Below the pieces are notes generated by a model. That model saw only the letters and a program-made list of their open reading frames with translations. It was not told the DNA's origin and made no database searches. Below are positions 1-54,213 of a stretch of 64,000 bases of DNA, piece by piece; position 1 is the stretch's first letter; each line of letters starts with the position of its first letter. The translations under genes were made by a program, and so were the position numbers. The stretch lies in the sequence record PQ567651.1. One strand, written 5' to 3'. The DNA comes from Escherichia phage cardinal.

Positions 1-472
1 TGTTGGCATTAGAATGGTCCCCATCATCAATTGTTTGCAAAACAATAGCAGTATCTGAACCAGAAACCATATTGTTATCAGAAATCAAGTGCCCCACATT
101 GGAACGCCACATAGTCACGTCACCAGCAGCCCCAGGAGATCCCAAAAATGTGCATCTCACAACATTACAATAACTTGAGTTATTTAGAAATACCGCCGAG
201 GCTTTATAGTTAGAAAACACACAATCTTCAATGCAACAATATGAGCATGTATCTAACCAAACACAAGAACCATTATATGTGTTGGTAGAACCTGAACTGG
301 AGGCAAGACGAGCATTAAAGATTTTGACACCTGTAACACCAGAACCATACAGCAAGGTAACTGTCGGTACATTGCACATCAAAGAAGACCCATTAATAAA
401 TTGTAGAGTCTGGTTATTAGTTTTCAAAGTTAAACGGGCTGATACTGTATATTTTTTAGAAAAATTACATCT
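1..472 (-). CDS. tailspike/tail fiber, C-terminal beta-helix portion (partial, runs off window start); same gene as 430..1023 but in the -1 frame
   Basis: My own translation of the minus strand of 1..472 gives an open frame reading ...KKYTVSARLTLKTNNQTLQFINGSSLMCNVPTVTLLYGSGVTGVKIFNARLASSSGSTNTYNGSCVWLDTCSYCC...SDTAIVLQTIDDGDHSNAN, a repetitive Gly/Asn/Ser/Thr-rich right-handed beta-helix-like sequence that follows the GDGVTDD motif of the upstream ORF. Confidence 0.5.
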
Positions 473-1023
473 TTACCTGAATCTAATGCCGCTTGTATCG
501 CGGTCAAGTCGTCAGTTACGCCATCACCCTTTGCACCATAAATTTCAGGGGTGACATAAGGTAGCTGGGTGGTGGCGTTCACCAAAACCCACGCACCCGA
601 CCCAACACCACCGGATGTTTCAGGGGTTGAGTCAGCGGGAACAGCTTTAGGGAAAGCACCACCCCATGTATAGCACTGTCCACCTGCAATATACCAAACA
701 GCATCCGTCTTATTATTTAATATAGCGCCATCTTCAAAGCTACCGTTGACAAGAGTTAACCCTGCCTCAGCAAGACTACGATGCCATAGTTCACGATCAT
801 TAAGAAGATTGTTATTCAACTCTTCCTGAACAGTATTACCATTTGAGGATTGTATTAAATCTGCTCCATTTGTATCTTTCAACTGGGTGGCTAAAACCAC
901 CCCAGTGTCAGCAAGAAAGTTGGAAACTGTGCTTTTAACAGTCTTATCAGGCTGGTCTAAAATCAGGTAATCAGAACCATTAACTTTTGATGTTTCGGGT
1001 AAATTAGTAATTGTAGTTGACAT
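430..1023 (-). CDS. tailspike/tail fiber, N-terminal portion with start of pectate-lyase-like beta-helix; interrupted by frameshift
   Basis: ORF track 197 aa; ends ...YGAKGDGVTDDLTAIQAALDSGKDVIFLKNIQYQPV*, carrying the GDGVTDDxxAIQAA signature of pectate-lyase-superfamily tailspikes, then stops 15 residues later. Confidence 0.6.
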   Translation of the reverse strand: MSTTITNLPETSKVNGSDYLILDQPDKTVKSTVSNFLADTGVVLATQLKDTNGADLIQSSNGNTVQEELNNNLLNDRELWHRSLAEAGLTLVNGSFEDGAILNNKTDAVWYIAGGQCYTWGGAFPKAVPADSTPETSGGVGSGAWVLVNATTQLPYVTPEIYGAKGDGVTDDLTAIQAALDSGKDVIFLKNIQYQPV

Positions 1024-1031
1024 TTTTACTC

Positions 1032-3191
1032 CTATATATAAAATTTTTGTGTTGTTACTAAATCTTCTCCAGATTTAGTGGCTAATGTAATTCCACTTAT
1101 GGTGGCAATCGTAACATTTACCTGTTTAAGAGTGATATCTTGCAAATAGCAATTCAAAGGCACATTACCCATATAAAAAACTTGGGATTTTGAATTAAGA
1201 ACAGTTATTGAATCATGCATTATTTGTGGATAAGCCCATATGTATTGATATAAACCAACAAACTTCTGGTCATTCAATACAATATTACCTATAATCATTT
1301 TCCACAAATATGTCCTATAGTTTGATTCAGGATCAAAGCCATATAATGGTGCTAGAGTTGCATCTGGAACAAACCCTGCAAGATAATGTATCTTATCATA
1401 ACTAAAACCTAGTTGCTCATTAGGTATTGTGATAGCGTCGAAAGATCTTTCCATCTTACCTTCCAACAACCAATCATAACATTCTGAACAATAAAAGTCA
1501 AAGTTTTCTGGGATATAATAATCTTTAGGGAAGTTAACAAATTCCATCATACCGTTACCTAAGATGGATGGTACAAATGGTAACAATGTAACTTTTGCTC
1601 CAGGATATGCTAATCTAGTATCTGTTGCAAATTTAGCAACACGCAGTCCTAATGTTTTAGACAGGAATGCATAATATTCATCATATGGTGTACCAGTTTT
1701 ATAATTCTTAACTGTACCAACATCTTGTGCATATAATCCAGTTTCATTATTAAATGCAACTTTGGTTGCATAATCATAAATACACGGGAGATTGGTAGCT
1801 GTGTTATACCACCACCACGGTTCACCAACCTGAATAATAACCGGAAGATCATTAGCAGCGGATATAGAAGCTATCTTATTTATTACACCTTGTAAATAAT
1901 TCATCCCTTCATCAATTGAAGGAGATAAAACATAACTTGGTGGCTCATAACCTGTAGCAGCCAGATTATCATTCCAAGTATGTTGTACCCATTCTACAGG
2001 ACACACTGTACTCATAAGTTCAAAACTTAAGGAGTTCATTACTGTGTAGCCCATAGCTTTTGCATTAGCGTGGAAATTATCAAACCAGGCTTCTGTTGCT
2101 GGGTTTAAATATTCTGTTCTGTTCAAAGTCCATTTATTAGATCCAGCATCCCAACTAAATTGATAATAGTGTGACATACCATTATAATGGTTAATCATAT
2201 CTCTATAACCTAATCTATAGGTGTTAGAAATAACTCGCTCCGGGGTTAGGTTATACATATCATCATAAGATGTACACATTCTTATGGTGTGTGCTGGAAC
2301 ATTTAAATTACCCATATTCATCATACTGTAACCAGTATCAGGCTCTAGTATGGTAAACTTAAAGGAAAGATCCATATTGTCTACAGGTATAACATCTTCA
2401 ATTTCTTGATACCTTGCGGAGATCAAGGAGAAGAACATATTATCTATCTGTGTAGTGTCAACAACAATATCATTTTCTGGCCCAGATTTTAAATTTGAGA
2501 AATCTAGTTTGATTGTTGCTGTCTTACCATCTTCTGAAACTTCTTCTGCATAAAAGTTTAGAGATACATAATGAACTGTTTCATCCTTCAGTGTCACTGT
2601 TAAGGATGGTATTAATTTTTCTTCTTTTAATCCAGGAACACCTTGACTAAGTTCCATTTTAAACCAAAGTTTCTCTTTACTTAAGTCAGAATGTTCTTGG
2701 TAGCCTAATCCTTTGTGATCATATTTATCGTAAGTTGACCAAATAATCCCAGCAAGACCAGCCACTGTCCTATTAACCATTCTTGCTGTGAAAGAATCAC
2801 CATTAGAGATAATAGAACAACTTTCTGTTGATTGAGAATCTATTGTCCAAAACTTAGGATCAAACATTCTAGACTTCACAACAGGCCAAGTTAGCGGGGT
2901 TGTATTCGATTGATCAGTCGTAATAACACAACGAATTTCTTCGTTGATCATCATGTTATTTTGACTTATGCTAGTAATCTCAAGAGTAAAATAAAGATCT
3001 AAAGAGTTTGCCGGACGTTCATATACATCAACCACTACAGTAGCAGAATCTGCATCAGAAGGGAACGTTACTGTTCCCTGTTTAGCTACATAATCTCTAC
3101 CAGCGACCGCCGTTCCATCGACGGTCTTATAGCTGAATGAACTGGCATTTACTCTCGTATTTCGAGTTACAGTAAAAATAGCCTGTTTCAT
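1032..3191 (-). CDS. tail fiber/receptor-binding-like structural protein with N-terminal Calx-beta-like domain
   Basis: 719 aa; N-terminus TVDGTAVAGRDYVAKQGTVTFPSDADSATVVVDV matches the Calx-beta pattern; lies between tailspike and baseplate genes. Confidence 0.45.
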   Translation of the reverse strand: MKQAIFTVTRNTRVNASSFSYKTVDGTAVAGRDYVAKQGTVTFPSDADSATVVVDVYERPANSLDLYFTLEITSISQNNMMINEEIRCVITTDQSNTTPLTWPVVKSRMFDPKFWTIDSQSTESCSIISNGDSFTARMVNRTVAGLAGIIWSTYDKYDHKGLGYQEHSDLSKEKLWFKMELSQGVPGLKEEKLIPSLTVTLKDETVHYVSLNFYAEEVSEDGKTATIKLDFSNLKSGPENDIVVDTTQIDNMFFSLISARYQEIEDVIPVDNMDLSFKFTILEPDTGYSMMNMGNLNVPAHTIRMCTSYDDMYNLTPERVISNTYRLGYRDMINHYNGMSHYYQFSWDAGSNKWTLNRTEYLNPATEAWFDNFHANAKAMGYTVMNSLSFELMSTVCPVEWVQHTWNDNLAATGYEPPSYVLSPSIDEGMNYLQGVINKIASISAANDLPVIIQVGEPWWWYNTATNLPCIYDYATKVAFNNETGLYAQDVGTVKNYKTGTPYDEYYAFLSKTLGLRVAKFATDTRLAYPGAKVTLLPFVPSILGNGMMEFVNFPKDYYIPENFDFYCSECYDWLLEGKMERSFDAITIPNEQLGFSYDKIHYLAGFVPDATLAPLYGFDPESNYRTYLWKMIIGNIVLNDQKFVGLYQYIWAYPQIMHDSITVLNSKSQVFYMGNVPLNCYLQDITLKQVNVTIATISGITLATKSGEDLVTTQKFYI

Positions 3192-3199
3192 TATTTTCC

Positions 3200-6076
3200 T
3201 TATTTGGTTACATCAACACTAATATCATTCATAGTTAGAACAGTTAGTGTTGGTATGTTACTATTATCCAAAATTGGTAAAGCGTTTTGAGGGTTTAGTT
3301 TACGATACAAGGCATATAAACCAAAACCACGTAATAGTTCTCCTGCATGGAAACCAAAGAACATTCCGTTATCTGAATCTGGGCGTGGTGCAACACTCCA
3401 GGAACCATTCATCGGATGGTTAGGGGAAAGCACAATATAGTTTTGCTGAATCAGATCAAAACATCTGTCTGCTACAATACCAATGTTTGGAATTTGTGAA
3501 TCATAACCTGCCAAGCCCATGATTGAACAACCCGCCATAAACAGTGCAGACATATGACTAGTAAAGTCATCTATAGGTGCAAGAACTGTACCATCTGGAT
3601 TAAAGATAGTTGGTGTTCTTCCATCATTATTGTCTTGGAACCATTTAAGGTAGTTGATCCAATTTTTACAAACGGTTACTAGTTTTTCAGGAGGTGTTTC
3701 TCCTCTTTGTACAAGTTCGTATACAGCATGACAAGCACAGTAGAATGCACGAGCTTCATAACCATCCCACGCTTTTTCATTCCAGTGTTTCATTGTGAAC
3801 GTATTTGGTTCACCGTATTTTCTTGCATCCCAACGATCCCACACATATGCTTGTGCCATAGGCCCAGGCATCACAGGATCAAACGTGTTATAAAACCACA
3901 TTTGAGCATCATACAAGAAATCAATACTGTTGTTTAAACGTGTCCAATCAATATCCCTACCTGCGAAACAGTATAAGGAAGGATACTGGTATCCTGGGTA
4001 TGGAATACCACGCCATCCATCGTATAATGCAGTGTTTGGGTCACTGATATTAGAGAATGGAATTATTCCTGGTGTGTAATTAAGACTATTTAACTTATAG
4101 TCAATAATAGTACAATCACCTAACTTAGCAGTATGAGGATTTGAAGCCTGTACAGTAATACGGAAGTACATGGTATAATCATCACCAGAAGATGACGAAT
4201 ATCTTTCAGGTACATCGTTAATACAATAGAAATCTATTGTTCCTGTTAAACCATTGACAGGAGCCGTATCAAGAACTAAATTTACCTGATCTACAGCAGT
4301 AAGATTTATTGCTGAAGGTTTAGGATCTGTTTCTGGATGATTAGGCTGGTAAGCACTTAACTTAAAATCAGAAGCTGATAAAGTCTTCGTACTCCATGCC
4401 CCTTGCGTTTTAGGCAGCATAGCCCACCATCTCCAACCTTGAGCATCCGTGATAGTCATGTTAAAGTCATCTTCATATGTTCTATATGTAATAGACTTAA
4501 CATTAGCTTTTGATGTAGGAGTTAACCAAAAACCAACAGTAACACCACCATCCGTATCCATTGATGCAGTAACAATCTGGTCATTATTAGTTCCAGCAAT
4601 ACCTGTTACATACTTATATTGTACCACAGTATTGTCACCCCAGTCAACAATAATTCGCGGATCTGCGATAATATATGTTCCACCACTTGGAGGGGTGCTT
4701 CTCATAAAGCTGGATAATGGAATATCCATGCTTGTCATATTAGCTGTACCCAGTGGTAAGCCACAGCGGTAAGTTACTGTGTTATTTTCATCTTTGGTCT
4801 TACTTAGTTCCAACTCTGGACGGAAAAGAATACCATGTCCTGCGTCATCTACACCTTGAAACTGAACTCGTAACTTAGAGTTCTGATCAACTTTAAACCA
4901 AATGGCTTGCTGTTCTAATGTTGTTTGAGCAGCAACATCTTGTCTAATAACAATATAGCCTAAAGTATCTCTTGAATATTTAGGTATTGCTGTAGATGGA
5001 TATGAATAATCGTAAGAGATGCCATCTGTAAACGGAATAGTTGCATATGTAGACTTACGGAAAAATTTATCAAACATATCAATGTTTGAGTAATCTTGAC
5101 ACACTAACAGTGAAGACTGCCAGCATAGCCAATATTTTCTTTCTCCTGTAATTTGGTACATCAGGTAATTAGCATCACACCACCAAGTTTCGGCATCTGA
5201 CGCATTATCCTGAAAGCCCATTTCTACCGGAACGTTAACTGGTCTGTTATGCCACATAGTGTTACGCTCCATTAAATAACCACCGTGCTCAACAGGGTTA
5301 CAAGTCGCGTAGTTAAATTTATATGTACCGTTTACAGAAGTATTTTTTAGTTGAACTGTTCCGTATTGAGATGTTGGAAAACCTTCTTCTAAGACATTTC
5401 CATCCCAGTCAACTTTACGTCCTAGACGATCAATGATCCAATCAACATCCCATTGATCTCCCTTCTTAGACCAATCTGTTGTACCATCTGCATTAACAGC
5501 ATATACTGTAGCGTTTACAGAGTTCCATCCTAGATTACCATTAAAAGCAAACCATGCTTTGTCAAGGTATTCTCCCCAATGAGGAGCACCATGAGGAATA
5601 ACTGTTCTACCGTTAGTCCACGTCATTAAGCTACCCTTAAAACCTCCGTGTGTAGGGTAGCCATCATCTGTAAGAGGATAGTGCGCAAGACGTGGTTCTT
5701 TACCGTTAATAATCCAGTTAGGGCGATATTTTGCTGGCGGATCGGGGATCGGTTGACCACCAAAGAAGTAATCTATATAGGCTTGCCAATATTTTTTAGC
5801 AGAGTCTAAATACTTTGTATCGCCGGAAGCCAGGTATGCATAAGCGCAACCAAGAATAAGCACGGATTGACCTTCTGTTGTAGCATCCCCGTTTGGTTGC
5901 CCTTCTTGAGCAGTCCAGTTTATAAAGTGTCTGTTATTAGCTAGAACGTTTTGTGGGTTTAATACATAGTGTTGCACTGTAGGATCTACAGTTAAACCTG
6001 TATTACGATCTAAGAACTGAATATGTCCATCGATCAGTTGAAAAACATTGTCAATTCTGTGCTTAATTCTTGACAT
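3200..6076 (-). CDS. large tail/baseplate-associated structural protein (possible tail fiber)
   Basis: 958-aa ORF in the tail module, no overlap conflicts; function inferred from position only. Confidence 0.45.
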   Translation of the reverse strand: MSRIKHRIDNVFQLIDGHIQFLDRNTGLTVDPTVQHYVLNPQNVLANNRHFINWTAQEGQPNGDATTEGQSVLILGCAYAYLASGDTKYLDSAKKYWQAYIDYFFGGQPIPDPPAKYRPNWIINGKEPRLAHYPLTDDGYPTHGGFKGSLMTWTNGRTVIPHGAPHWGEYLDKAWFAFNGNLGWNSVNATVYAVNADGTTDWSKKGDQWDVDWIIDRLGRKVDWDGNVLEEGFPTSQYGTVQLKNTSVNGTYKFNYATCNPVEHGGYLMERNTMWHNRPVNVPVEMGFQDNASDAETWWCDANYLMYQITGERKYWLCWQSSLLVCQDYSNIDMFDKFFRKSTYATIPFTDGISYDYSYPSTAIPKYSRDTLGYIVIRQDVAAQTTLEQQAIWFKVDQNSKLRVQFQGVDDAGHGILFRPELELSKTKDENNTVTYRCGLPLGTANMTSMDIPLSSFMRSTPPSGGTYIIADPRIIVDWGDNTVVQYKYVTGIAGTNNDQIVTASMDTDGGVTVGFWLTPTSKANVKSITYRTYEDDFNMTITDAQGWRWWAMLPKTQGAWSTKTLSASDFKLSAYQPNHPETDPKPSAINLTAVDQVNLVLDTAPVNGLTGTIDFYCINDVPERYSSSSGDDYTMYFRITVQASNPHTAKLGDCTIIDYKLNSLNYTPGIIPFSNISDPNTALYDGWRGIPYPGYQYPSLYCFAGRDIDWTRLNNSIDFLYDAQMWFYNTFDPVMPGPMAQAYVWDRWDARKYGEPNTFTMKHWNEKAWDGYEARAFYCACHAVYELVQRGETPPEKLVTVCKNWINYLKWFQDNNDGRTPTIFNPDGTVLAPIDDFTSHMSALFMAGCSIMGLAGYDSQIPNIGIVADRCFDLIQQNYIVLSPNHPMNGSWSVAPRPDSDNGMFFGFHAGELLRGFGLYALYRKLNPQNALPILDNSNIPTLTVLTMNDISVDVTK

Positions 6077-9377: not shown

Positions 9378-10088
9378 TTATTTTTTACCATCTGCACTGT
9401 GATCACTAAGATGTTCTGTACCAGTTGCTTTCCCTGTTCTTGCATCAAGATCAGCATCTGGACTAGTACCTTTCTTGTTTTTAACACCTGTATTCTTATT
9501 TGGTTTTGTCTTAAGTGCAATAGCATTTGTTTCCCCGTAAGAAACTAATCTTACTTGTTCAAATTCCAAGTCAAATTGCATTGCATATTCTGTTTGATAT
9601 TCATATGATATGCCTTTCAAAATAACATTCTCATACACCTTATGTTCTGTTATTAAAATAATAGGCTGTCTTTCATCAAATATTTTATCTAAGTAAGTAA
9701 TTGCTTGACTGATACGAGTACCGTTAACACCAGCACTATATAGCATATCTCGCATCAATCTCACAGGTGTCTCTGTAATCATTCCTGATAAAGAGAAAGT
9801 ATTATTTTTAACTTGAACGTGATCAGATACGTTAGCTCCATTTTCTACAGGATAACTAGTTACATCTGCTTGACGTTTTACACCGATATTTGGAACAGCA
9901 TCAAAAACTATAGCTTGGTAGTTTTGAATATATTGATCACTTGCACTATTGTAAACGCTTGCTAAAATACAAAAACCATTCTCCCCTTTCACAGTAGAGG
10001 CAGAGTTATTTGTGTTTTTTGTAGAGTTTATATCTTGTTCCGCTTTATAAACCGCTTGAACGTGTTGTTCTGGAGTGTTTGCTGCCAT
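9378..10088 (-). CDS. tail protein (hypothetical)
   Basis: 236-aa ORF; preceded on the minus strand by a promoter-like element and RBS AAGAGG. Confidence 0.45.
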   Translation of the reverse strand: MAANTPEQHVQAVYKAEQDINSTKNTNNSASTVKGENGFCILASVYNSASDQYIQNYQAIVFDAVPNIGVKRQADVTSYPVENGANVSDHVQVKNNTFSLSGMITETPVRLMRDMLYSAGVNGTRISQAITYLDKIFDERQPIILITEHKVYENVILKGISYEYQTEYAMQFDLEFEQVRLVSYGETNAIALKTKPNKNTGVKNKKGTSPDADLDARTGKATGTEHLSDHSADGKK

Positions 10089-10135: not shown

Positions 10136-10165
10136 ATTTTATCACGAAAAACAACTCTTTGTCAA
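10136..10165 (-). promoter_or_regulatory. sigma70-like promoter TTGACA-N18-TAAAAT
   Basis: Minus-strand reading ...TTGACAaagagttgtttttcgtgaTAAAAT...; sits between the tape-measure terminator and the 10088 start codon. Coordinates +/-2. Confidence 0.45.
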
Positions 10166-10172
10166 GACAAAT

Positions 10173-10199
10173 AAAAAGCCCCGCCGAAGCGAGGCTTTA
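10173..10199 (-). terminator. rho-independent terminator after tape measure gene
   Basis: Minus strand AAAGCCTCGC-TTCG-GCGGGGCTTTTTATTTG: GC-rich hairpin with one mismatch followed by T-tract, directly after the 10204 stop. Confidence 0.55.
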
Positions 10200-10203
10200 T
10201 GCA

Positions 10204-12183
10204 TTAACCACCAGTAGAAGATTGTCCACTGCTTAACTGAAGAGTTAAACCTTGTGAGAAGTTACTAAAACTGGTATTCATTGTCGCATCTAGATAATTA
10301 CTAAAACCATAGCCATCTGGAATAACATTAATCTGGAATGCGTTGTCTGGGATAACAACCGTATTCTCTACACTTAACGGTACTGGAACACCTTGGCGTG
10401 GTGTTAGCATAGATGCTGTTAAATCAGGTCTATTGTAACCGATACTAGAAGCACTTGGGTTTAAGGCACTAGTTAAGAAACTACTATCAAAGTCACCTAA
10501 AGGTTGATTTTCAGGTTTATATTGATCTCTTCCAATAGGCCAATAAGCCCAAGGATTACCACCAACCTGTGCATCGTACCCATACTGCGTACCATTATAA
10601 TAATCTCTTACAGCTTCTTTAGTATTGTTTTTTGGCCCAACCTTATTTGAAAAATCAAGGAAATATTTCGCAATTTTTGCAAGGCTACTTACAATACTAC
10701 CAGACATTTCACCAAGACCACGAGCAGCTTCTTGGAAAGTTTTCATATTCTCTGCAAAATCTGGTGCAGATTTTAAACCATCCATGAAGCCTATAAGTAA
10801 GTTATTGGTAAAACCTTCTCCTGCTGCACTAATTTGTGCTCTTAGCTTAACAAAATCTTGTGCTGCTTTGATGTTTTCATCGTTAAGAGTTGCTCCTGAA
10901 TTTTTTAACATATCCAAGACTTTCATGTACTCTTTACCGTTATCCAAAAACATACGTTGGTAGTGCATTAAGTCATCACCAAGGTTTTCCATCAAACGAC
11001 CAATTTGCGCGGAGTTCATTCCTCTTTTTTGACCTTCATTAACAAGTGCTTGAACAAAGTCTAAAGGTCTGTTCTGGAATTTAGCAACGTCTTCTTTCGA
11101 CCAACCAAATTGGTTCATGATTTCATTAATACCACTATCTCCACCTTTCCATTTACCTGACTTTTCATCAAATTCAGAGTGGAGTACAGTATTACCTAAA
11201 CGTTCACGAACGTCTTTAATATTGTCAATGGCTTTAATAATGCTGGCAGAGTCTACACCGTTCATCTCACCCCAAGTACGCATTGTTAAAATTGCATTAG
11301 GGTTTACCTGTACGTTCTGACCACCTTTACTAACCATATTAATACGTTCTGCCGCAGTTGTGATACTTTCAGCTATTTTGCTTATACCTTGATATAAACC
11401 AGCACCTAAAAGAGCAGCACCAAACATAGCAGGGTTAAGAGCAATAGCAGCATTACCTACACCAGATAGCTTACGTTGTCTATCTCGTTGTCTTGCTTCT
11501 TTCTCTCTTCTTTGCTGACGTTCGAAATCCTTTCTTTCTCTTTCTCGGATACGCTGTCTTCTTTTATCTTCTGCTTCTTGCAGACGGGCAATTCTACGTC
11601 TAGCTCTCTCTTCATCAAGAAGTTGTGCATTCTTCTCTCTATGAGATCTGCGTAGTTCTTCTAACTGTCTAGCCAAAGTATTATTCATTTGTTGGCTAGT
11701 GATTACACCTTTACGATAAAGTTCAACAGTTTCTTCTACAATCTTTTTAGATTTTTCTAGAATTCTGCTGTCTGCTTTTGTAAAAGGCATAGCTTTAAAA
11801 CTAAAATCGTCTTGCTTCATATTAGCAAGTGCTGCACGTTTAGCGGCGGCTTCTGCGGCTCTTTCCTCTGGTGTCTTACGTCCTCCAGAAGATCCAGAAC
11901 CACCTCTACCACTTCCTCCTTTTCCACCACCACTTGAACCTCCGGTTGGTGGGATTGGTGGAGGATTACCGCCGCCAAGACCTGACATTTGCTGCCTTAT
12001 TCTTTTAGCATACTCTTCCATACTTTTAAACTGACGACGCATTTTAGTCATATTTAAAGATGGTTCAATAGATTCTGTAAAAGTTTTAAGGTTTTTAATT
12101 GCGTCTTTAGTATTTTTTAAACTGTCTTTATCTACAGTAAACGTTACTGTATTCTTAATCTTGGAAGTGTTAATTTCTAACAA
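10204..12183 (-). CDS. tail tape measure protein
   Basis: 659 aa; Gly-rich GGGNPPPIPPTGGSSGGGKGGSGRGGSGSSGG and highly charged coiled-coil segment RRRIARLQEAEDKRRQRIRERERKDFERQQRREKEARQRDRQRK; sits between chaperone and baseplate genes. Confidence 0.75.
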   Translation of the reverse strand: MLEINTSKIKNTVTFTVDKDSLKNTKDAIKNLKTFTESIEPSLNMTKMRRQFKSMEEYAKRIRQQMSGLGGGNPPPIPPTGGSSGGGKGGSGRGGSGSSGGRKTPEERAAEAAAKRAALANMKQDDFSFKAMPFTKADSRILEKSKKIVEETVELYRKGVITSQQMNNTLARQLEELRRSHREKNAQLLDEERARRRIARLQEAEDKRRQRIRERERKDFERQQRREKEARQRDRQRKLSGVGNAAIALNPAMFGAALLGAGLYQGISKIAESITTAAERINMVSKGGQNVQVNPNAILTMRTWGEMNGVDSASIIKAIDNIKDVRERLGNTVLHSEFDEKSGKWKGGDSGINEIMNQFGWSKEDVAKFQNRPLDFVQALVNEGQKRGMNSAQIGRLMENLGDDLMHYQRMFLDNGKEYMKVLDMLKNSGATLNDENIKAAQDFVKLRAQISAAGEGFTNNLLIGFMDGLKSAPDFAENMKTFQEAARGLGEMSGSIVSSLAKIAKYFLDFSNKVGPKNNTKEAVRDYYNGTQYGYDAQVGGNPWAYWPIGRDQYKPENQPLGDFDSSFLTSALNPSASSIGYNRPDLTASMLTPRQGVPVPLSVENTVVIPDNAFQINVIPDGYGFSNYLDATMNTSFSNFSQGLTLQLSSGQSSTGG

Positions 12184-12202
12184 GGGTAATCCTCCGTATT
12201 AC

Positions 12203-12547
12203 TTATGAATCTGGAATTAATTTTTTCATAGCCGTATCCAGTTCTCTTATTGTTCTCTGTTGACCACGTTTAATATCCGCATCTTTAACGTGAAGATCTT
12301 GTACATAGTCTTCAAATGTTAAATATTCATAAATTTTAAGTAGATAATCTACACCATAATTATCTAACGAGGACAAGGTTTCGGAGGTATTCTTAATTAC
12401 CTTACAAAGAATTACTTCATACCATGTCAAGCTAAGGGTTTGTGAGGCAATTTCAATTGCTGATTTAATTGCCGGACTTAACTCTTCGCTAGAGTCTCTA
12501 TTCCTTGAAATTGGGTCAACAGTTTTCCGAAACCTCGTTTGAAAAAA
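12203..12547 (-). CDS. tail assembly chaperone -1 frameshift extension (GT-like product when fused to 12478..12960)
   Basis: The -1 frame is open from 12562 to the stop at 12203 and overlaps the 3' end of the chaperone; T_TTT_TTC heptamer at 12541..12547. Confidence 0.5.
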   Translation of the reverse strand, partial: FFQTRFRKTVDPISRNRDSSEELSPAIKSAIEIASQTLSLTWYEVILCKVIKNTSETLSSLDNYGVDYLLKIYEYLTFEDYVQDLHVKDADIKRGQQRTIRELDTAMKKLIPDS

Positions 12548-12960
12548 GGGGCATAGTTCACCTCAAGAACTTTTGCAGCTAAGTCAACAACTAATTCTGG
12601 GTGAGCAAAAAACAATTCATCAAAATTATCGGAAACACTGTGTCCTGCTTCTGTGTAAACTTCATCTAAAATTTTACGTAAGAATGCAGCTAAGTTTTTT
12701 TCTTCCAGACCACTGAATAATTGGATCAGTGCCATAGCAATACGAGCTTCTAGATCTTCGTCTGCTGACATAAGAGCAGTATTATACATTGTCATAGGAA
12801 CAGCCAGTACACTACCTAGTTCTGGAATCCTTTCAAAAACTTTAGTCGGACTCCACTTGAGAACTCTAAATTTTACACTGCGTCCTTCATCCAGATCAAT
12901 TTCAACCATTACTTCTGGACGAGCAAATTTTGCAATAGTATTATCTTTTTGTTGTTCCAT
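12478..12960 (-). CDS. tail assembly chaperone (G-like)
   Basis: 160-aa acidic ORF immediately upstream of tape measure; contains slippery heptamer near its 3' end. Confidence 0.6.
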   Translation of the reverse strand: MEQQKDNTIAKFARPEVMVEIDLDEGRSVKFRVLKWSPTKVFERIPELGSVLAVPMTMYNTALMSADEDLEARIAMALIQLFSGLEEKNLAAFLRKILDEVYTEAGHSVSDNFDELFFAHPELVVDLAAKVLEVNYAPFFKRGFGKLLTQFQGIETLAKS

Positions 12961-13003
12961 TATTTCCTCTCTTTAAAAATAAAGGGCATTTCTGCCCTTT
13001 TTA

Positions 13004-13483
13004 TTACTGAATAGTTAGAGCACTAATAGAGTTAAGTGCGTTAACACCAACACCTACAGTAGAACGAAGTAGGCTTGCATCTTTAAGACCAATTACCCAT
13101 TGGTTTTCTTGAATAGTTTCACCAATAGTATCGTCCGGTTGGCTTTGAATCCAACCAATTGTGCTGATATAATATCCGCGAGGGTCTTCCAGATATACGC
13201 TAAATGCTACTTGACGAGTAGAATACATCGTTTGTGCATAAGCAGCAAGAACTTCGTTTGCTGGGGAAGTACGTTGCAGTGACATTGTTAGCGTACCTAA
13301 ACGGTTACGACTAAGCGCCAAGGAAACGTCACCATCAGTACCTGAATATGGGTTGATGATATCGTTAGTTTTGTTAATAACAATTTTGGTATCTGCGGCG
13401 AAACCCCAAGGTTCCCAACCACCCAAAGACAGGATTACTTGAGAAGGATCATAGGCCATTACGCCAGTAAGCATTTTATCCAA
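13004..13483 (-). CDS. tail tube protein
   Basis: 159 aa, immediately downstream of sheath gene; standard sheath-tube order. Confidence 0.65.
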   Translation of the reverse strand: MDKMLTGVMAYDPSQVILSLGGWEPWGFAADTKIVINKTNDIINPYSGTDGDVSLALSRNRLGTLTMSLQRTSPANEVLAAYAQTMYSTRQVAFSVYLEDPRGYYISTIGWIQSQPDDTIGETIQENQWVIGLKDASLLRSTVGVGVNALNSISALTIQ

Positions 13484-13541: not shown

Positions 13542-14948
13542 TTATGAAGATACAGTAGAGCTATTGGAATTCTGGCTATTTGCAGTGCGGTTCGTCAGAA
13601 CGTTTACCTGCACTTTAACATAGTGGAAGAATCCAGCATATACGTATTCAATAACCATACCATCAACCAAACGTGCATTGATTTGAGCATCAGTCATATC
13701 TGCACGAGATGGGATATAGATAGTAGGTTTAAGGCTTACCAGAAGTCCTGTTTCCTCTGAAGTTACTACCTCATTGGCAATAGAACCATTGTTAATACCT
13801 ACTTGGATTGGGTTTGCAGTAACAGCCTGACGAATCAAAGCAAGACCAGCAGAAGTTGCTCTAACACCACTACCAAGCATAGATTGCTGTTTAAATAGAG
13901 CGAACAGAGATTCTTCTACACGAGCTTTGAACCACAGAGCGTGTACCACATAGTCAACATAGAAACCACTAACCATGAAACCATCACGGTAGAACAGAAC
14001 ACCGTGTTCTTTACGGTAAATATTACCATTCTGTTGAACGATAAAGTTTTCTGCTGTCTGACCAAGTTTTTCAATCTCGATACCAACAAGGGTTTTACCA
14101 TGCAGGGTAGTAGTACCTGGTGTTGCAGAGCAGATAGAACCAACTACAGCAGCCTCTGGGAACACTGTATCAGCGTTAGTCATCCACAATGCCATACAAG
14201 TGTTATTGTAGCCCATATCACCTAAGCGTTCTAGAATGTTATCTTCTTCTTTAGTTAGAACACCTGGTTGCGAGGTAGAGAAGAAATACACTTTATCGTG
14301 CTCTTCTACATAACCTGCTAGATCGATAATATCTTGTTCTGCGTGAGAATCAGATAGTAACCAGAACCAACTGTTTTCATAATCTGCAATTTTAGCAATA
14401 TCTTCTAAGATATCATTTGCATATTCTACTTTAGTTGTGAATCCTGAACTATCCATAGTAGCGTATTTACCTGCAACTGGGGTTACAGTGATAACACTAC
14501 CATCGTTTGACACAGTGAAGAATTCTTTATACACCATGTCTGCGTTGATCATTTCTGTTAAACCAACAACAATCTCTTGAGCAGTTGCAGTATCATCGGC
14601 AACAAACTTGAAGTCCTTGCTTTTTGAATTTGCTTTAATAGTGATAACGTAAGTTGCACTATCTTCAACTACTGGAGTTAGAGTTGTTTTAGAAACATCA
14701 CGCTTACCGACGATAACTTGTTCTGGTGCGAACAGACCGTCAAATAGTAGTTTTGCCATTTTATAAGCTGGATCGGCAGTGCCAAAACCTGCTTGCAGAA
14801 GTGCGTCTGAAGAAGTGAAATAATCTACAAGATTGCCAGTAACGTTATGCCCTGTAAGAATTAGAGGGATATCAAACTGTGTTTCACTAATTGAAGTAGC
14901 ACCGTAGGTAAGGGTTACGGAAACTACCTTATCACGAAAAGTTGCCAT
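13542..14948 (-). CDS. tail sheath protein
   Basis: 468 aa, size and position typical of contractile tail sheath. Confidence 0.75.
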   Translation of the reverse strand: MATFRDKVVSVTLTYGATSISETQFDIPLILTGHNVTGNLVDYFTSSDALLQAGFGTADPAYKMAKLLFDGLFAPEQVIVGKRDVSKTTLTPVVEDSATYVITIKANSKSKDFKFVADDTATAQEIVVGLTEMINADMVYKEFFTVSNDGSVITVTPVAGKYATMDSSGFTTKVEYANDILEDIAKIADYENSWFWLLSDSHAEQDIIDLAGYVEEHDKVYFFSTSQPGVLTKEEDNILERLGDMGYNNTCMALWMTNADTVFPEAAVVGSICSATPGTTTLHGKTLVGIEIEKLGQTAENFIVQQNGNIYRKEHGVLFYRDGFMVSGFYVDYVVHALWFKARVEESLFALFKQQSMLGSGVRATSAGLALIRQAVTANPIQVGINNGSIANEVVTSEETGLLVSLKPTIYIPSRADMTDAQINARLVDGMVIEYVYAGFFHYVKVQVNVLTNRTANSQNSNSSTVSS

Positions 14949-43439: not shown

Positions 43440-44398
43440 GTAAATTAACAGACGAACAGAAAGCCTTGATTGTATCTATGAAAGCACAAGGTTATTCTTC
43501 GCGTAAGATTGCACAAGAGGTGTTGGGAAGTTCTACTAAGAAGAGCACAGTAAATGATTACTTAGCTCGTGTAAATTCACCACATCGCGGTGCTCCGCAA
43601 GATAAAGGTGGGCCAGTAATTAAAATTATTGACGTAGAGACAGCACCGGAGATTGTGTATAGCTTCTCACGTTTCAAAGCCTTTATTGCACCTGAACAAG
43701 TTATTCGTCGAGGTTACTTGCTTTCCTATTCCTCTGCTGATTTAGAAACAGGGGAAGTAGAAGGTAAGAACCTTAGCAATTACCCTTTGTTTGACATAGA
43801 TCATACAGATGATTGGGAATTATGTCAAGATCTCTGGCACTTGCTTGATGATGCAGATATTGTGATCGCGCACAATGGTATTAAGTTTGATAAGGCTTAT
43901 ATTAACCAACGTTTTGCTTTTCACGGTATGGAGCCACCATCACATTACGTTGTAATTGATACACTCAAGGCAGCTAAGAAGCAGTTTGCACTACCTTCTA
44001 ATGCGATTAAAGAAATGTGTTTGTATTTTGATACAGAAAACTTTAAACTTGATAATGAAGGTTTTCCTTTGTGGAAAGCATGTTGTGAAGGAGATAGACA
44101 TGCCTTCTTCCGTATGCAAACATACAACGATGGTGATGTTGTTTCTCTTCGAGATCTTTACATCAAACTTCGTGCATGGATTCCACAACATCCTAACGTA
44201 TCTGCATTCTATGACGATGAAAAACTTCGTTGTCCTCGTTGCGGTAAAGAGCACCTTGAAGTTGTTCCTGGTAAGGTTTACACAACAGCGGTTAGTACAT
44301 TCCAAGTGCTAAGATGCACATCATGTAATAGCCTGTCTCGTGGACGTGTTAATTTGCGTAGCAAAGAGAAGCGTGTAAACACTGTTATTGGAATTTAA
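43436..44398 (+). CDS. DnaQ-like 3'-5' exonuclease with N-terminal helix-turn-helix and C-terminal zinc ribbon
   Basis: 320 aa; IIDVETAP (Exo I, DxE), HNGIKFD (Exo II), YNDGD (Exo III), CPRCG...CTSCN. Confidence 0.55.
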   Translation: MSKLTDEQKALIVSMKAQGYSSRKIAQEVLGSSTKKSTVNDYLARVNSPHRGAPQDKGGPVIKIIDVETAPEIVYSFSRFKAFIAPEQVIRRGYLLSYSSADLETGEVEGKNLSNYPLFDIDHTDDWELCQDLWHLLDDADIVIAHNGIKFDKAYINQRFAFHGMEPPSHYVVIDTLKAAKKQFALPSNAIKEMCLYFDTENFKLDNEGFPLWKACCEGDRHAFFRMQTYNDGDVVSLRDLYIKLRAWIPQHPNVSAFYDDEKLRCPRCGKEHLEVVPGKVYTTAVSTFQVLRCTSCNSLSRGRVNLRSKEKRVNTVIGI

Positions 44399-53308: not shown

Positions 53309-54213
53309 AATACTTAGTAACAGGTGGTTTAGGCTTTATTGGAAGTGCGGTAGTTCGTTTCCTGGCTAAAAACACTAAGAATGATATTTACGTTATAGAT
53401 AAATGGAGTTACGCTTCAGACCCTAGAAATTTATCAGAAACACCTAATGTAAAGTTTTGTCGTGTTGACTTGACAAATGCTCAGTTAACTGCTAAGATTG
53501 TGGCAGATGTTAATCCAGATTATATAATGCATCTTGCAGCAGAAAGTCACGTAGATAACTCAATAGCATCACCGAGTGTTTTTATAAATTCAAATATTGT
53601 TGGAACATTTAATCTTCTAGAAGCTGTTCGTTTAATGGGAGATAAATCAAATCTTAAAATGTTTCATCATATTTCAACAGACTATGTTTTTGATGGGCAT
53701 GTTGCTGGCACAGAAGATAGTAAAACAAACCCCTTGAACACCTACGGTTACAGTAAACAATTAGGTGAAACTTTAGTACAAACAGTTTGTCCTACAGCAC
53801 TTATTATCAGAACAGCTTCTGTTTATAGTGAATTTGGACATAACTTTTTGAAAACTATGTTGGAACGCTACAACGGTGGTCAAAAAGAATTTAATGTAGT
53901 ATGTGATCATTTATCATGTCCTACTTATGCACCTGATCTTGCAGAAACAATTTTTAAACTTGTAAAAGATGGTGTAAATAGTAAAATTGTACACTATGCA
54001 GGTGCAGATTATATTTCTTGGTATGATTTTGCACGAAAGATATTTCTTGTTATAGATTTATCTGTTACAGTTAATCCTGTATCTGCTTCAACCTATAATT
54101 CCAAAGCAGTCAGACCAGCAACATCTTATTTAAGAACAGATCCTACTTTAAATCCGCGAAGTGTTGATAGCGGTATTGTAAGAGCTTTAACTATACTTTT
54201 AAACAAGGAGTGA
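53305..54213 (+). CDS. NAD(P)-dependent epimerase/reductase of the extended SDR family (RmlD-like)
   Basis: 302 aa; Rossmann VTGGLGFIGS and catalytic YGYSK (YxxxK). Confidence 0.6.
   Translation: MKYLVTGGLGFIGSAVVRFLAKNTKNDIYVIDKWSYASDPRNLSETPNVKFCRVDLTNAQLTAKIVADVNPDYIMHLAAESHVDNSIASPSVFINSNIVGTFNLLEAVRLMGDKSNLKMFHHISTDYVFDGHVAGTEDSKTNPLNTYGYSKQLGETLVQTVCPTALIIRTASVYSEFGHNFLKTMLERYNGGQKEFNVVCDHLSCPTYAPDLAETIFKLVKDGVNSKIVHYAGADYISWYDFARKIFLVIDLSVTVNPVSASTYNSKAVRPATSYLRTDPTLNPRSVDSGIVRALTILLNKE

What the first reader, a model, noticed from the sequence alone, without database searches (positions are those of the whole stretch)
12541..12547. Programmed -1 frameshift site (U_UUU_UUC) in the tail assembly chaperone gene
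Twenty-one codons before the chaperone stop there is a perfect slippery heptamer T_TTT_TTC. The -1 frame is open from this point for 112 codons to 12203, which would give a G/GT-type fusion product, as conserved upstream of tape measure genes in tailed phages.
Basis: partly seen in the sequence, partly recalled or inferred. Interest (0 to 1): 0.5.

Follow-up and report, generated by a model that had tools for sequence, protein, structure and literature searches.

The report
Tail chaperone frameshift site in phi92-like phage
This is the ordinary "G/GT" programmed -1 ribosomal frameshift that long-tailed phages use to make a short and a long tail-assembly chaperone from one gene; it looks real and is conserved across phi92/rV5-like phages, but none of the 16 GenBank records I inspected annotates it.

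Summary
TTTTTTC lies at 12547..12541 on the minus strand, in X_XXY_YYZ phase (CCT TTT TTC), 21 codons before the stop of a 160-aa tail assembly chaperone gene (12960..12478; Pfam Phage_TAC_15). The -1 frame then runs 112 codons to TAA at 12205..12203, 19 nt before the tape measure gene.

The window is a phi92-like myophage. The genes correspond to phi92 gp132 (chaperone), gp133 (small ORF) and gp134 (tape measure).

The heptamer alone is not rare. The case rests on four points:
- **Synteny:** sheath, tube, chaperone, small ORF, tape measure.
- **Conservation:** all 16 GenBank relatives and all 49 IMG/VR loci carry an in-phase slippery heptamer at or next to the homologous spot, with a -1 extension of 79-128 codons. 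TAC identity falls to about 23%.
- **Heptamer turnover:** T_TTT_TTC, T_TTT_TTG, C_CCT_TTT, A_AAT_TTT or G_GGA_AAG. This fits ribosomal slippage and argues against RNA polymerase slippage.
- **No independent start:** the small ORF has no ribosome-binding site, and its conserved residues and coding signature extend upstream of its TTG.

No conserved downstream RNA structure was found. A Shine-Dalgarno-like GAGGUGA ends 10 nt upstream and may stimulate the shift.

Verdict: a new, unannotated member of a well-known kind. Interest is low to moderate.

The parts
12478..12960 (-). Tail assembly chaperone gene, short product 'G' (160 aa); homologue of phi92 gp132.
   Evidence: The ORF is. It matches Pfam PF21822 Phage_TAC_15 at 1.6e-22 and phrog_3840 'tail assembly chaperone' at 4.4e-54. 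Over window 12100-13100 the DNA is 99.2% identical to phi92, where gp132 is annotated. GAGAGGA lies upstream of the ATG.
12541..12547 (-). Slippery heptamer T_TTT_TTC, with P-site codon TTT (139) and A-site codon TTC (140).
   Evidence: The heptamer is unchanged at the homologous position in 14 of 16 GenBank relatives and in 44 of 49 IMG/VR loci; the others carry a different canonical heptamer there.
12544..12550 (-). Overlapping second in-phase heptamer C_CCT_TTT. Together the two form the decamer C_CCU_UUU_UUC, and a slip on either gives the same trans-frame protein.
   Evidence: It accompanies T_TTT_TTC in the Stephanstirmvirinae-like loci. It is the only slippery heptamer in L042 and L047.
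12203..12541 (-). -1 frame extension 'T': 112 codons plus the TAA stop. The long product GT is join(12960..12541, 12541..12203) on the minus strand, 252 aa, with base 12541 read twice.
   Evidence: Searches give the reading frame. Homologous -1 peptides align across 13 phages, with an RFR motif right after the slip and conserved A28, A32, S37, L38 and W40.
12203..12430 (-). The small ORF as usually annotated (75 aa from TTG; homologue of phi92 gp133). Here it is read as the C-terminal two-thirds of the T segment, not as a separate gene.
   Evidence: One search lists the ORF; it matches phrog_16039 at 3.4e-45. phi92 annotates gp133 without an RBS feature. No SD lies upstream of the TTG. First start codons in the -1 frame sit at non-homologous positions in relatives.
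12563..12565 (-). TGA stop in the -1 frame, 6 codons upstream of the heptamer. It sets the 5' limit of the region where a productive shift can occur.
   Evidence: In the 12 other relatives with correctly placed coordinates the equivalent stop lies 4-13 codons upstream of the heptamer.
12558..12564 (-). Shine-Dalgarno-like GAGGUGA inside the coding sequence, ending 10 nt before the heptamer. It is a candidate 5' stimulator; this role is inferred.
   Evidence: The duplex with the 16S 3' end scores -9.9 kcal/mol, and only 1.3% of random 30-nt windows in the same gene module are as strong. An SD-like element of -8 kcal/mol or better occurs in 26 of 34 distinct upstream contexts, 19 of them at 10-11 nt spacing. 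The element overlaps the conserved codons Leu-Glu-Val.
10204..12183 (-). Tape measure protein gene (659 aa; homologue of phi92 gp134). It starts 19 nt after the T stop.
   Evidence: It matches phrog_16051 with E = 0. phi92 gp134 is annotated as potential tape measure protein and is resolved as trimeric TMP in the virion. GGAGG precedes the TTG start.
13004..13483 (-). Tail tube gene (homologue of phi92 gp131), immediately upstream of the chaperone gene.
   Evidence: It matches PF11681 and phrog_280. phi92 gp131 is the tube protein in the cryo-EM study.
13542..14948 (-). Tail sheath gene (homologue of phi92 gp130).
   Evidence: It matches phrog_205 'tail sheath' at 3e-104. phi92 gp130 is the sheath protein.

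Best explanation
This is a programmed -1 ribosomal frameshift in the tail assembly chaperone gene of a phi92-like myophage.

Most ribosomes translate 12960..12478 and release the 160-aa chaperone, 'G'. A minority slip back one base when tRNA-Phe molecules occupy UUU (P site) and UUC (A site) of U_UUU_UUC at 12547..12541. Slippage one codon earlier on C_CCU_UUU gives the same result. Both tRNAs re-pair with UUU UUU, and translation continues from CAA (12541) for 112 more codons to TAA 12205..12203. The result is a 252-aa 'GT' protein: G residues 1-140 fused to a T segment that includes all of the ORF annotated elsewhere as a separate hypothetical protein (phi92 gp133).

By analogy with lambda gpG/gpGT and P2 gpE/gpE+E' (my own knowledge of that literature), G and GT would coat the tape measure protein encoded just downstream. 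They would recruit tube subunits and be absent from the finished virion.

**Shown here:** the heptamer, its phase, the open -1 frame, the TAC homology, the synteny, the conservation, and the lack of initiation signals.

**Inferred:** that slippage actually occurs, its efficiency, the G/GT function, and a stimulatory role for the SD-like GAGGUGA that ends 10 nt upstream.
For: 1. **Anatomy.** The heptamer is in phase and the -1 frame is open for 112 codons, ending 19 nt before the TMP start.

2. **Identity and context.** The gene is a TAC (PF21822, phrog_3840). Sheath and tube genes lie upstream and the TMP gene downstream.

3. **Conservation.** All 16 GenBank relatives have an in-phase slippery heptamer at or within a few codons of the ...NY[GAS][PC]FF... 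position, with a -1 extension of 93-128 codons. They include phi92, phAPEC8, Klebsiella and Citrobacter phages, rV5, Av-05, 4MG, phiTE, and Erwinia, Vibrio, Aeromonas and Rheinheimera phages, with TAC identity down to about 23%. All 49 IMG/VR loci do too, with extensions of 79-127 codons.

4. **Heptamer turnover.** The heptamer changes but stays canonical and in phase. It is T_TTT_TTG in L059, L060 and L063. It is C_CCT_TTT, with only a T4 run, in L042 and L047. It is A_AAT_TTT in Vibrio phage S4-7 and G_GGA_AAG in Rheinheimera phage Barba18A.

5. **Narrow shift window.** A -1 frame stop lies 4-13 codons upstream of the heptamer in the 13 loci with correctly placed coordinates.

6. **No independent start.** The first start codon in the -1 frame of the window is TTG, 39 codons after the slip. 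It has no SD, whereas the seven neighbouring gene starts checked all have one. phi92 annotates no RBS for gp133. Start codons in relatives are not at homologous positions.

7. **Coding signal upstream of the annotated start.** Conserved RFR, A28, A32 and S37 lie 5' of the TTG. In the 45 nt between the G stop and the TTG, variable columns by -1 codon position are 11/15, 8/15 and 15/15. This matches the annotated ORF (43/63, 34/63, 61/63).

8. **Motif class.** E. coli experiments find UUN A-site codons and all-pyrimidine heptamers to be generally more shift-prone (PMC4066793).

9. **Sister clades.** A conserved -1 PRF at a GTTTTT motif in the TAC gene has been argued for Vandenendeviridae and Andersonviridae (PMC12846349).

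10. **Virion content.** gp132 and gp133 are not among the virion proteins identified in the phi92 cryo-EM study, as expected for assembly chaperones.
Against: - There is no experimental evidence for the 252-aa product in any member of this clade that I could find.
- No conserved downstream stem-loop or pseudoknot was detected. The single-sequence fold has z = -1.54, and the alignment-fold energies are -0.93 and -0.09 kcal/mol.
- In E. coli reporter assays, heptamers without a stimulator raise frameshifting only 2- to 10-fold over a background of about 0.05%. The efficiency here could therefore be low unless the SD-like element or something else helps.
- The SD-like element overlaps conserved Leu-Glu-Val codons, so its conservation may be purely protein-level. 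It is weak or displaced in some lineages.
- Part of the IMG/VR set was retrieved with a peptide pattern adjacent to the slip site, which biases that set toward conservation of this region. The GenBank set was found by tblastn and does not share this bias.
Confidence: 0.88

Rival explanations
1. Transcriptional slippage gives the same GT protein. RNA polymerase would stutter on the T6 run (A6 in the template) and add one extra U to a fraction of the mRNAs. Those mRNAs would then be translated normally into the fusion.
For: The site is a homopolymer (T6, preceded by C4) and is conserved as a T-run in most relatives. [quoted passage not shown] The protein product would be identical to that of ribosomal slippage, so sequence analysis alone cannot fully exclude this.
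Against: A run of six is short for bacterial RNA polymerase slippage; from my own knowledge, productive cases usually need about 8-9 or more identical bases. Relatives keep the shift with no long homopolymer: C_CCT_TTT with T4 (L042, L047), A_AAT_TTT (Vibrio S4-7) and G_GGA_AAG (Barba18A). What is conserved is the codon phase of a tandem-slippage heptamer, which matters to the ribosome and not to the polymerase.
Confidence: 0.05
2. There are two separate genes. The 75-aa ORF 12430..12203 would be translated on its own from the TTG, by de novo initiation or by re-initiation after the chaperone stop, as it is annotated in GenBank relatives. No fusion protein would be made.
For: Every annotated relative inspected lists it as an independent CDS. 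PHROGs has a 72-aa family for it, phrog_16039. No database protein spans both halves: 45 hits to the fused query all cover only 55-60% of it.
Against: There is no SD before the TTG, whereas the seven neighbouring gene starts checked all have AGGAG or GGAGG-like sites. phi92 annotators found no RBS for gp133. The first start codon in the -1 frame falls at different, non-homologous positions in relatives, and rV5 gp050 had to be annotated from a CTG touching the heptamer. Conserved residues and a third-position variability pattern extend upstream of the TTG. The -1 frame is open from the heptamer in all 65 loci.
Confidence: 0.05
3. The heptamer and the open -1 frame are a coincidence, or the apparent frameshift is a sequencing error or pseudogene.
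For: TTTTTTC is common in this 37% GC window: 22 copies against 33 expected. A few other in-phase heptamers also have long -1 extensions. The same window does contain one gene split by a 1-nt homopolymer difference.
Against: The arrangement is the same in dozens of independently sequenced genomes, across several viral subfamilies and host genera. Both the short stop-terminated G form and the -1 T frame are preserved, and no relative has the two halves fused in one frame.
Confidence: 0.02

Closest known systems
Phage lambda gpG/gpGT tail assembly chaperones (Levin et al. 1993; Xu, Hendrix and Duda 2004, Mol Cell 16:11, cited in PMC8785237)
   Same: Two overlapping ORFs lie between the major tail (tube) gene and the tape measure gene. 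[quoted passage not shown] The downstream ORF has no initiation signals of its own. No strong RNA structure is evident.
   Different: Lambda is a siphovirus and uses G_GGA_AAG; this site uses U_UUU_UUC, with C_CCU_UUU overlapping. I detected no sequence similarity to a lambda-type family: the gene matches Phage_TAC_15 instead. One distant relative of this family, Rheinheimera phage Barba18A, does use the lambda-type G_GGA_AAG.
Phage P2 gpE / gpE+E' (Christie et al. 2002, J Bacteriol; recalled from memory, not re-read here)
   Same: It is a contractile-tailed phage with the order sheath, tube, E/E', tape measure. It has a -1 frameshift near the end of E on a T-rich heptamer; as I recall, T_TTT_TTG, the variant seen here in L059, L060 and L063.
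   Different: The protein family is different, and P2 is a small temperate phage. The P2 frameshift was shown experimentally (about 10% as I recall). Here nothing has been measured.
TAC-N/TAC-NC frameshift proposed for Vandenendeviridae (Pakpunavirus) and Andersonviridae (Felix O1-like, Mooglevirus) (PMC12846349)
   Same: The virion modules are related; that paper links these clades to Vequintavirinae. In all of them the downstream ORF is routinely annotated as a hypothetical protein. A poly-T slip motif (GTTTTT) lies near the 3' end of TAC-N. The -1 frame is open in all genomes of the clade.
   Different: The TAC section of that paper (section 3.8.3) does not cover Stephanstirmvirinae or Vequintavirinae. 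I could not link the proteins by tblastn, so homology of the sites themselves is not shown here.
Phage T7 gene 10A/10B frameshift (Condron et al. 1991, cited in PMC8785237)
   Same: It is a -1 slip on a U-rich motif ending in UUUUC in an E. coli phage structural gene, producing a minor C-terminally extended form.
   Different: It concerns the capsid protein rather than a tail chaperone. As I recall the motif is G_GUU_UUC. The functional logic is different.
E. coli dnaX and IS911/IS3 -1 frameshift signals with an upstream Shine-Dalgarno-like stimulator (PMC4066793, for IS911 and IS3; dnaX spacing from memory)
   Same: An internal SD-like sequence lies about 10-14 nt 5' of the heptamer. Here GAGGUGA ends 10 nt before U_UUU_UUC.
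   Different: dnaX and the IS elements also use a 3' hairpin or pseudoknot, and none is detectable here. The stimulatory role of the SD-like element here is untested, and its conservation is confounded with coding.

Membership tests
G/GT-type tail assembly chaperone with programmed -1 frameshift (Xu, Hendrix and Duda 2004 criteria) | A pair of overlapping ORFs lies directly between the major tail/tube gene and the tape measure gene. | tested here: met
   The order on the minus strand is tube (13483..13004), TAC (12960..12478), -1 ORF (to 12203) and TMP (12183..10204).
G/GT-type tail assembly chaperone with programmed -1 frameshift (Xu, Hendrix and Duda 2004 criteria) | The upstream ORF is a tail assembly chaperone. 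| tested here: met
   It matches PF21822 Phage_TAC_15 at 1.6e-22 (80.8 bits against a cut-off of 22) and phrog_3840 at 4.4e-54. The assignment rests on homology and family name only; no biochemical test exists.
G/GT-type tail assembly chaperone with programmed -1 frameshift (Xu, Hendrix and Duda 2004 criteria) | A canonical X_XXY_YYZ slippery heptamer lies in the zero-frame phase, inside the region where both frames are open. | tested here: met
   T_TTT_TTC is at 12547..12541 and C_CCT_TTT at 12550..12544. Both lie within the 85-nt window between the -1 frame TGA (12565..12563) and the G stop.
G/GT-type tail assembly chaperone with programmed -1 frameshift (Xu, Hendrix and Duda 2004 criteria) | The downstream ORF lacks its own translation initiation signals. 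| tested here: met
   The first start codon is TTG, 39 codons after the slip, and it has no SD. The seven neighbouring gene starts checked all have SD sequences. phi92 has no RBS feature for gp133.
G/GT-type tail assembly chaperone with programmed -1 frameshift (Xu, Hendrix and Duda 2004 criteria) | The arrangement (slip site, phase and -1 extension) is conserved in divergent relatives. | tested here: met
   It holds in 16 of 16 GenBank loci and 49 of 49 IMG/VR loci. Five different canonical heptamers are used.
G/GT-type tail assembly chaperone with programmed -1 frameshift (Xu, Hendrix and Duda 2004 criteria) | Both a short and a long protein are made at a fixed ratio, and both are needed for tail assembly. 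| not testable with these tools
   This needs proteomics, western blots and genetics. I found no such data for this clade.
G/GT-type tail assembly chaperone with programmed -1 frameshift (Xu, Hendrix and Duda 2004 criteria) | The chaperones are absent from mature virions. | tested here: inconclusive
   The phi92 cryo-EM study identifies gp120-gp147 components, and gp132 and gp133 never occur in its text (0 occurrences each). This is absence from one structural study, not a dedicated proteomic test.
-1 PRF signals with a 3' RNA stimulator (IS3/IS911, dnaX, coronavirus type) | A stable stem-loop or pseudoknot lies 5-9 nt downstream of the heptamer and is conserved with covariation. | tested here: not met
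   The single-sequence fold has z = -1.54. Alignment-fold consensus energies are -0.93 and -0.09 kcal/mol, with no helix near the heptamer. No Rfam family reached threshold.
-1 PRF signals with a 5' Shine-Dalgarno-like stimulator (dnaX, IS911 type) | An internal SD-like sequence lies about 10-14 nt upstream of the heptamer. | tested here: inconclusive
   GAGGUGA ends 10 nt upstream, scores -9.9 kcal/mol and falls in the top 1.3% of random windows. A comparable element at 10-11 nt is present in 19 of 34 distinct contexts, but it overlaps conserved Leu-Glu-Val codons and is weak or displaced in other lineages.

The most novel reading that the evidence does not exclude
The rV5/phi92 supergroup may carry a frameshift cassette with no 3' RNA structure. 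It would instead rely on a 5' internal Shine-Dalgarno-like element (GAGGUGA or GGAGGU, 10-11 nt upstream) together with a tandem decamer (C_CCU_UUU_UUC). Lineages that lose the proximal SD-like element appear to gain another one 18-21 nt upstream. If confirmed, this would be an SD-tuned G:GT ratio in a phage tail chaperone gene, setting chaperone stoichiometry by the dnaX-type route.
Probability: 0.25. Interest if true: 0.4.

Novelty: new member of a known kind. Interest (0 to 1): 0.25.

Why it matters
The G/GT frameshift is textbook phage biology, so its presence here would not surprise a specialist.

The practical value lies in annotation. phi92-, phAPEC8- and rV5-like phages are widely isolated and studied as therapy candidates. 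TAC homologues occur in 362-495 GenBank phage records. All 16 records I inspected list the T segment as a separate hypothetical protein or leave it unannotated, and none joins it to the chaperone. rV5 even starts it at a CTG. No database protein spans the fusion.

Correct annotation would add an essential 252-aa assembly protein to these genomes. It also gives a clean set of natural heptamer variants (U_UUU_UUC, U_UUU_UUG, C_CCU_UUU, A_AAU_UUU, G_GGA_AAG) in homologous contexts, which could be used to study what sets frameshift efficiency without a 3' structure.

Tried and rejected
- **Downstream RNA stimulator.** The single-sequence fold was not significant. The two alignment folds, one for Stephanstirmvirinae-like and one for Vequintavirinae-like loci, had essentially zero consensus energy and no helix near the heptamer. 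I rejected this. The conserved CGGTTTCG 6-9 nt downstream is better explained by dual coding (GFG/GFA in frame 0, RFR in frame -1). It is absent in the Aeromonas phage.
- **Rfam scan of 12150-13050.** It gave only two sub-threshold plus-strand matches.
- **Search for an annotated or natural full-length fusion.** I searched with the 252-aa product. All 45 hits are proteins of about 160 aa covering only the G part.
- **PDB sequence search with G and with T.** Nothing meaningful came back.
- **Structure prediction.** The T segment alone, without an alignment, gave pLDDT 44.5, which is unusable, so I ran no fold search.
- **Literature.** I found no statement of this frameshift for phi92, rV5, Vequintavirinae or Stephanstirmvirinae. 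Only the sister-clade paper addresses it. The Vladimirov et al. 2022 paper on T4-like TACs could not be read.
- **Coordinate error.** In one search I mis-entered the heptamer coordinates for L023-L056, off by one. Those six rows are invalid and are not used.
- **Chance statistics on the heptamer alone.** These do not support significance, so I did not use them as evidence.
Full report
**What is in the sequence**

On the minus strand the window reads ...GTT CTT GAG GTG AAC TAT GCC CCT TTT TTC AAA CGA GGT TTC GGA.... The ORF from ATG 12960 to TAA 12480..12478 encodes 160 aa. TTTTTTC occupies 12547..12541. The zero-frame codons are CCT (138), TTT (139) and TTC (140), so the heptamer is in the T_TTT_TTC phase needed for tandem tRNA slippage.

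After a -1 slip the next codon is CAA (12541..12539). The frame stays open for 112 codons to TAA 12205..12203. The predicted long product is 140 + 112 = 252 aa.

Three details go beyond the finding:
- A second in-phase heptamer, C_CCT_TTT (12550..12544), overlaps the first and would give the same protein.
- The -1 frame is closed by TGA at 12565..12563, six codons upstream. A productive shift is therefore confined to about 85 nt.
- The first possible start codon in the -1 frame is the TTG at 12430, 39 codons after the heptamer.

**Is it more than chance?**

The heptamer alone is not. TTTTTTC occurs 22 times in this 37% GC window against 33 expected. Among 110 in-phase XXXYYYZ heptamers in ORFs of at least 100 aa, 81 have -1 extensions under 10 codons. 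Four reach 100 or more, and two of those are this site. The argument has to rest on context and comparison.

**Context**

The window is a phi92-like myophage (Justusliebigvirus, Stephanstirmvirinae). Positions 12100-13100 are 100% identical to Escherichia phages PD114 and PD06, and 99.2% identical to phi92.

The neighbouring genes on the minus strand are:

| Window coordinates | Product | Evidence |
|---|---|---|
| 14948..13542 | Tail sheath | phrog_205, 3e-104 |
| 13483..13004 | Tail tube | PF11681, phrog_280 |
| 12960..12478 | Tail assembly chaperone | PF21822 Phage_TAC_15, 1.6e-22; phrog_3840, 4e-54 |
| 12430..12203 | Small ORF | phrog_16039, unknown function |
| 12183..10204 | Tape measure protein | phrog_16051 |
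| 10088..9378 | Dit-like tube initiator | PF21821 |

They correspond to phi92 gp130-gp135. A 2026 cryo-EM study of phi92 assigns gp130 as sheath, gp131 as tube, gp134 as trimeric tape measure protein and gp135 as tube initiator. It does not find gp132 or gp133 in the virion (PMC13450770). This is the classical position of the G/GT chaperone pair.

**Comparative test**

I fetched the locus from 16 GenBank phages found by blastn or tblastn (loci). I also fetched 49 IMG/VR loci. Chaperone identity to the window falls to about 23%.

In every one of these 65 loci an in-phase canonical slippery heptamer lies at or within a few codons of the ...NY[GAS][PC]FF... position. In every one the -1 frame runs 79-128 codons, to just before the tape measure gene or to a short insertion before it.

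The heptamer is T_TTT_TTC in nearly all loci. The exceptions are:
- T_TTT_TTG in L059, L060 and L063.
- C_CCT_TTT alone, with only a T4 run, in L042 and L047.
- A_AAT_TTT in Vibrio phage S4-7.
- G_GGA_AAG, the lambda heptamer, in Rheinheimera phage Barba18A. There the T-run is gone (...HYGCLTSGKSF...) and the new heptamer lies a few codons downstream.

Replacement of one canonical heptamer by another, with codon phase preserved, is the signature of selection for ribosomal slippage.

One caveat applies. One of the two peptide patterns used to retrieve the IMG/VR loci abuts the slip site, so that set is biased toward conservation there. The GenBank set is not biased in this way.

**Is the small ORF an independent gene?**

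The evidence says no.
- The seven neighbouring gene starts checked (sheath, tube, TAC, TMP and three baseplate genes downstream) all have AGGAG, GGAGG or GAGG-type sites upstream. The 25 nt before TTG 12430 (tgaaattgcctcacaaacccttagc) have none.
- The phi92 record annotates ribosome-binding sites for gp128-130, gp132 and gp134-136 but none for gp133.
- In relatives, the first start codon in the -1 frame falls at different, non-homologous positions.
- The rV5 RefSeq record starts gp050 at a CTG that touches the heptamer.

Aligned -1 peptides show an RFR motif directly after the slip. A variable linker follows, Gly/Ser-rich in Vequintavirinae, and then a conserved block. Within that block, A28, A32 and S37 lie upstream of the TTG, which is itself the conserved Leu38.

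Among ten Stephanstirmvirinae-like sequences I examined the 45 nt between the G stop and the TTG. Variable columns by -1 codon position are 11/15, 8/15 and 15/15. This is the same pattern as inside the annotated ORF (43/63, 34/63, 61/63). The numbers are small but consistent with translation in that frame.

**Mechanism**

The best-supported mechanism is tandem -1 slippage of two tRNA-Phe on U_UUU_UUC, or of tRNA-Pro and tRNA-Phe on C_CCU_UUU.

Systematic E. coli reporter work found UUN and AAN A-site codons more shift-prone on average. It also found that motifs are more shift-prone when X and Z are all purines or all pyrimidines. Without stimulators, however, the gain was only 2- to 10-fold over a background of about 0.05% (PMC4066793).

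I found no conserved 3' structure and no Rfam match above threshold.

Upstream, GAGGUGA (12564..12558) ends 10 nt before the heptamer. It pairs with the 16S 3' end at -9.9 kcal/mol, and only 1.3% of random 30-nt windows from the same gene module are as strong. Of 34 distinct upstream contexts, 26 have an SD-like element of -8 kcal/mol or better: 19 at 10-11 nt and 7 at 18-21 nt. The spacing resembles that of the dnaX and IS911 5' stimulators. The element overlaps conserved Leu-Glu-Val codons, though, so I treat a stimulatory role as a hypothesis only.

**Rivals**

- **Transcriptional slippage** on the T6 run would give the same protein. It is disfavoured by the short run and by relatives that keep the arrangement with T4, A3T4 or G3A3G.
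- **Independent initiation or re-initiation** at the TTG is disfavoured for the reasons given above.
- **Sequencing error or pseudogene** is excluded by conservation in dozens of independently sequenced, divergent genomes. No relative has the two halves fused in one frame: all 45 hits to the fused query are proteins of about 160 aa covering 55-60% of it.

**Comparison with known systems and novelty**

This meets every sequence-level criterion of the conserved tail-chaperone frameshift of Xu, Hendrix and Duda (2004), exemplified by lambda G/GT and P2 E/E+E'.

A 2025 paper argues for the same kind of frameshift, at a GTTTTT motif, in the TAC genes of Vandenendeviridae and Andersonviridae. It relates those clades to Vequintavirinae (PMC12846349).

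I found no publication making the claim for phi92, rV5, Stephanstirmvirinae or Vequintavirinae. None of the 16 inspected GenBank records joins the two CDSs.

I therefore rate it a new, unannotated member of a well-known kind. The main value is correcting the annotation of several hundred genomes of therapy-relevant phages. A smaller mechanistic question remains about what sets efficiency when there is no 3' structure.

**What led nowhere**

- Structure prediction failed to help.
- PDB sequence searches found nothing.
- Six rows used mis-entered coordinates and are ignored.

Noticed in passing
window 430..1023 (minus strand), indel near 464..469: A tailspike gene appears to be split by a one-base difference in a homopolymer. 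The 197-aa ORF ends ...GKDVIFLKNIQYQPV*, and the -1 frame continues as a beta-helix-like sequence to the window edge. Escherichia phage AV125 is 99.1% identical over window 1..1100 and has one continuous 731-aa tailspike CDS there, with T6 (AATTTTTTCT) where the window has T5. This could be a sequencing error, a real inactivating mutation or a phase-variable run.
   Followed up: partly
window 1..1100 compared with 12100..13100: The genome is mosaic. The chaperone region is 100% identical to Justusliebigvirus phages PD114 and PD06. The tailspike region matches those phages over only about 48% of its length, at 93-94% identity. Its best match is the Phapecoctavirus AV125 at 99.1%, which suggests exchange of a receptor-binding module between genera.
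   Followed up: no
window 12981..13000 (either strand): A terminator-like hairpin, AAAGGGCAGAAATGCCCTTT followed by ATTTTT, lies between the tube gene and the chaperone gene. It is readable on both strands. phAPEC8 annotates a terminator at the equivalent spot. It could lower chaperone and TMP expression relative to tube.
   Followed up: no
window 10136..10198 (minus strand): A strong terminator-like hairpin (10198..10175; 10 pairs, 6 GC, T-rich tail) lies directly after the tape measure gene. It is followed by a near-consensus sigma-70-like promoter (TTGACA, 18 nt spacer, TAAAAT with an upstream TG; 11 of 12 matches) at 10165..10136, ahead of the tube-initiator gene.
   Followed up: no
window 12878..13003 and 12494..12528 (plus strand): There are two sub-threshold Rfam matches antisense to the chaperone gene. 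SraG scores 36.3 bits against a gathering score of 50 (E = 2.4e-4) and spans the bidirectional hairpin and the 5' end of the TAC gene. CRISPR-DR35 scores 25 bits against 35. Both are probably chance matches.
   Followed up: no
L007 (rV5, NC_011041) 1851..2219: RefSeq annotates rV5 gp050 as a 122-aa CDS that overlaps gp051 and starts at a CTG codon immediately 5' of the TTTTTTC heptamer. The annotators evidently stretched the ORF as far upstream as it would go, without invoking a frameshift.
   Followed up: yes
L001 (phi92, FR775895) 2104..2196: The phi92 GenBank record annotates a 'hypothetical tRNA' inside the tail sheath gene gp130. This is most likely a spurious prediction.
   Followed up: no
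GenBank records MG0656xx, hits: More than 20 records named 'Campylobacter phage' with host C. jejuni match E. coli phi92-like or rV5-like phages in this region. Four are 99.4% identical to the window's DNA over 12100-13100, and the chaperone protein is 100% identical to the window's or to rV5's in other records. The host labels look doubtful, through contamination or mislabelling.
   Followed up: no
L066 (Rheinheimera phage Barba18A) 2132..2770; L012 (phiTE) 2246..3346: The otherwise tight junction between the T ORF and the tape measure gene is interrupted in some relatives. Barba18A has an HNH endonuclease on the opposite strand there. phiTE has two extra ORFs there.
   Followed up: no
window 44042..44048 (+), 54198..54204 (+), 30699..30705 (+), 34628..34634 (-): Other in-phase slippery heptamers (T_TTA_AAC, T_TTA_AAA, A_AAT_TTA) have -1 extensions of 80-116 codons. 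They are most likely ordinary overlaps with the next gene or shadow ORFs. I did not examine them.
   Followed up: no
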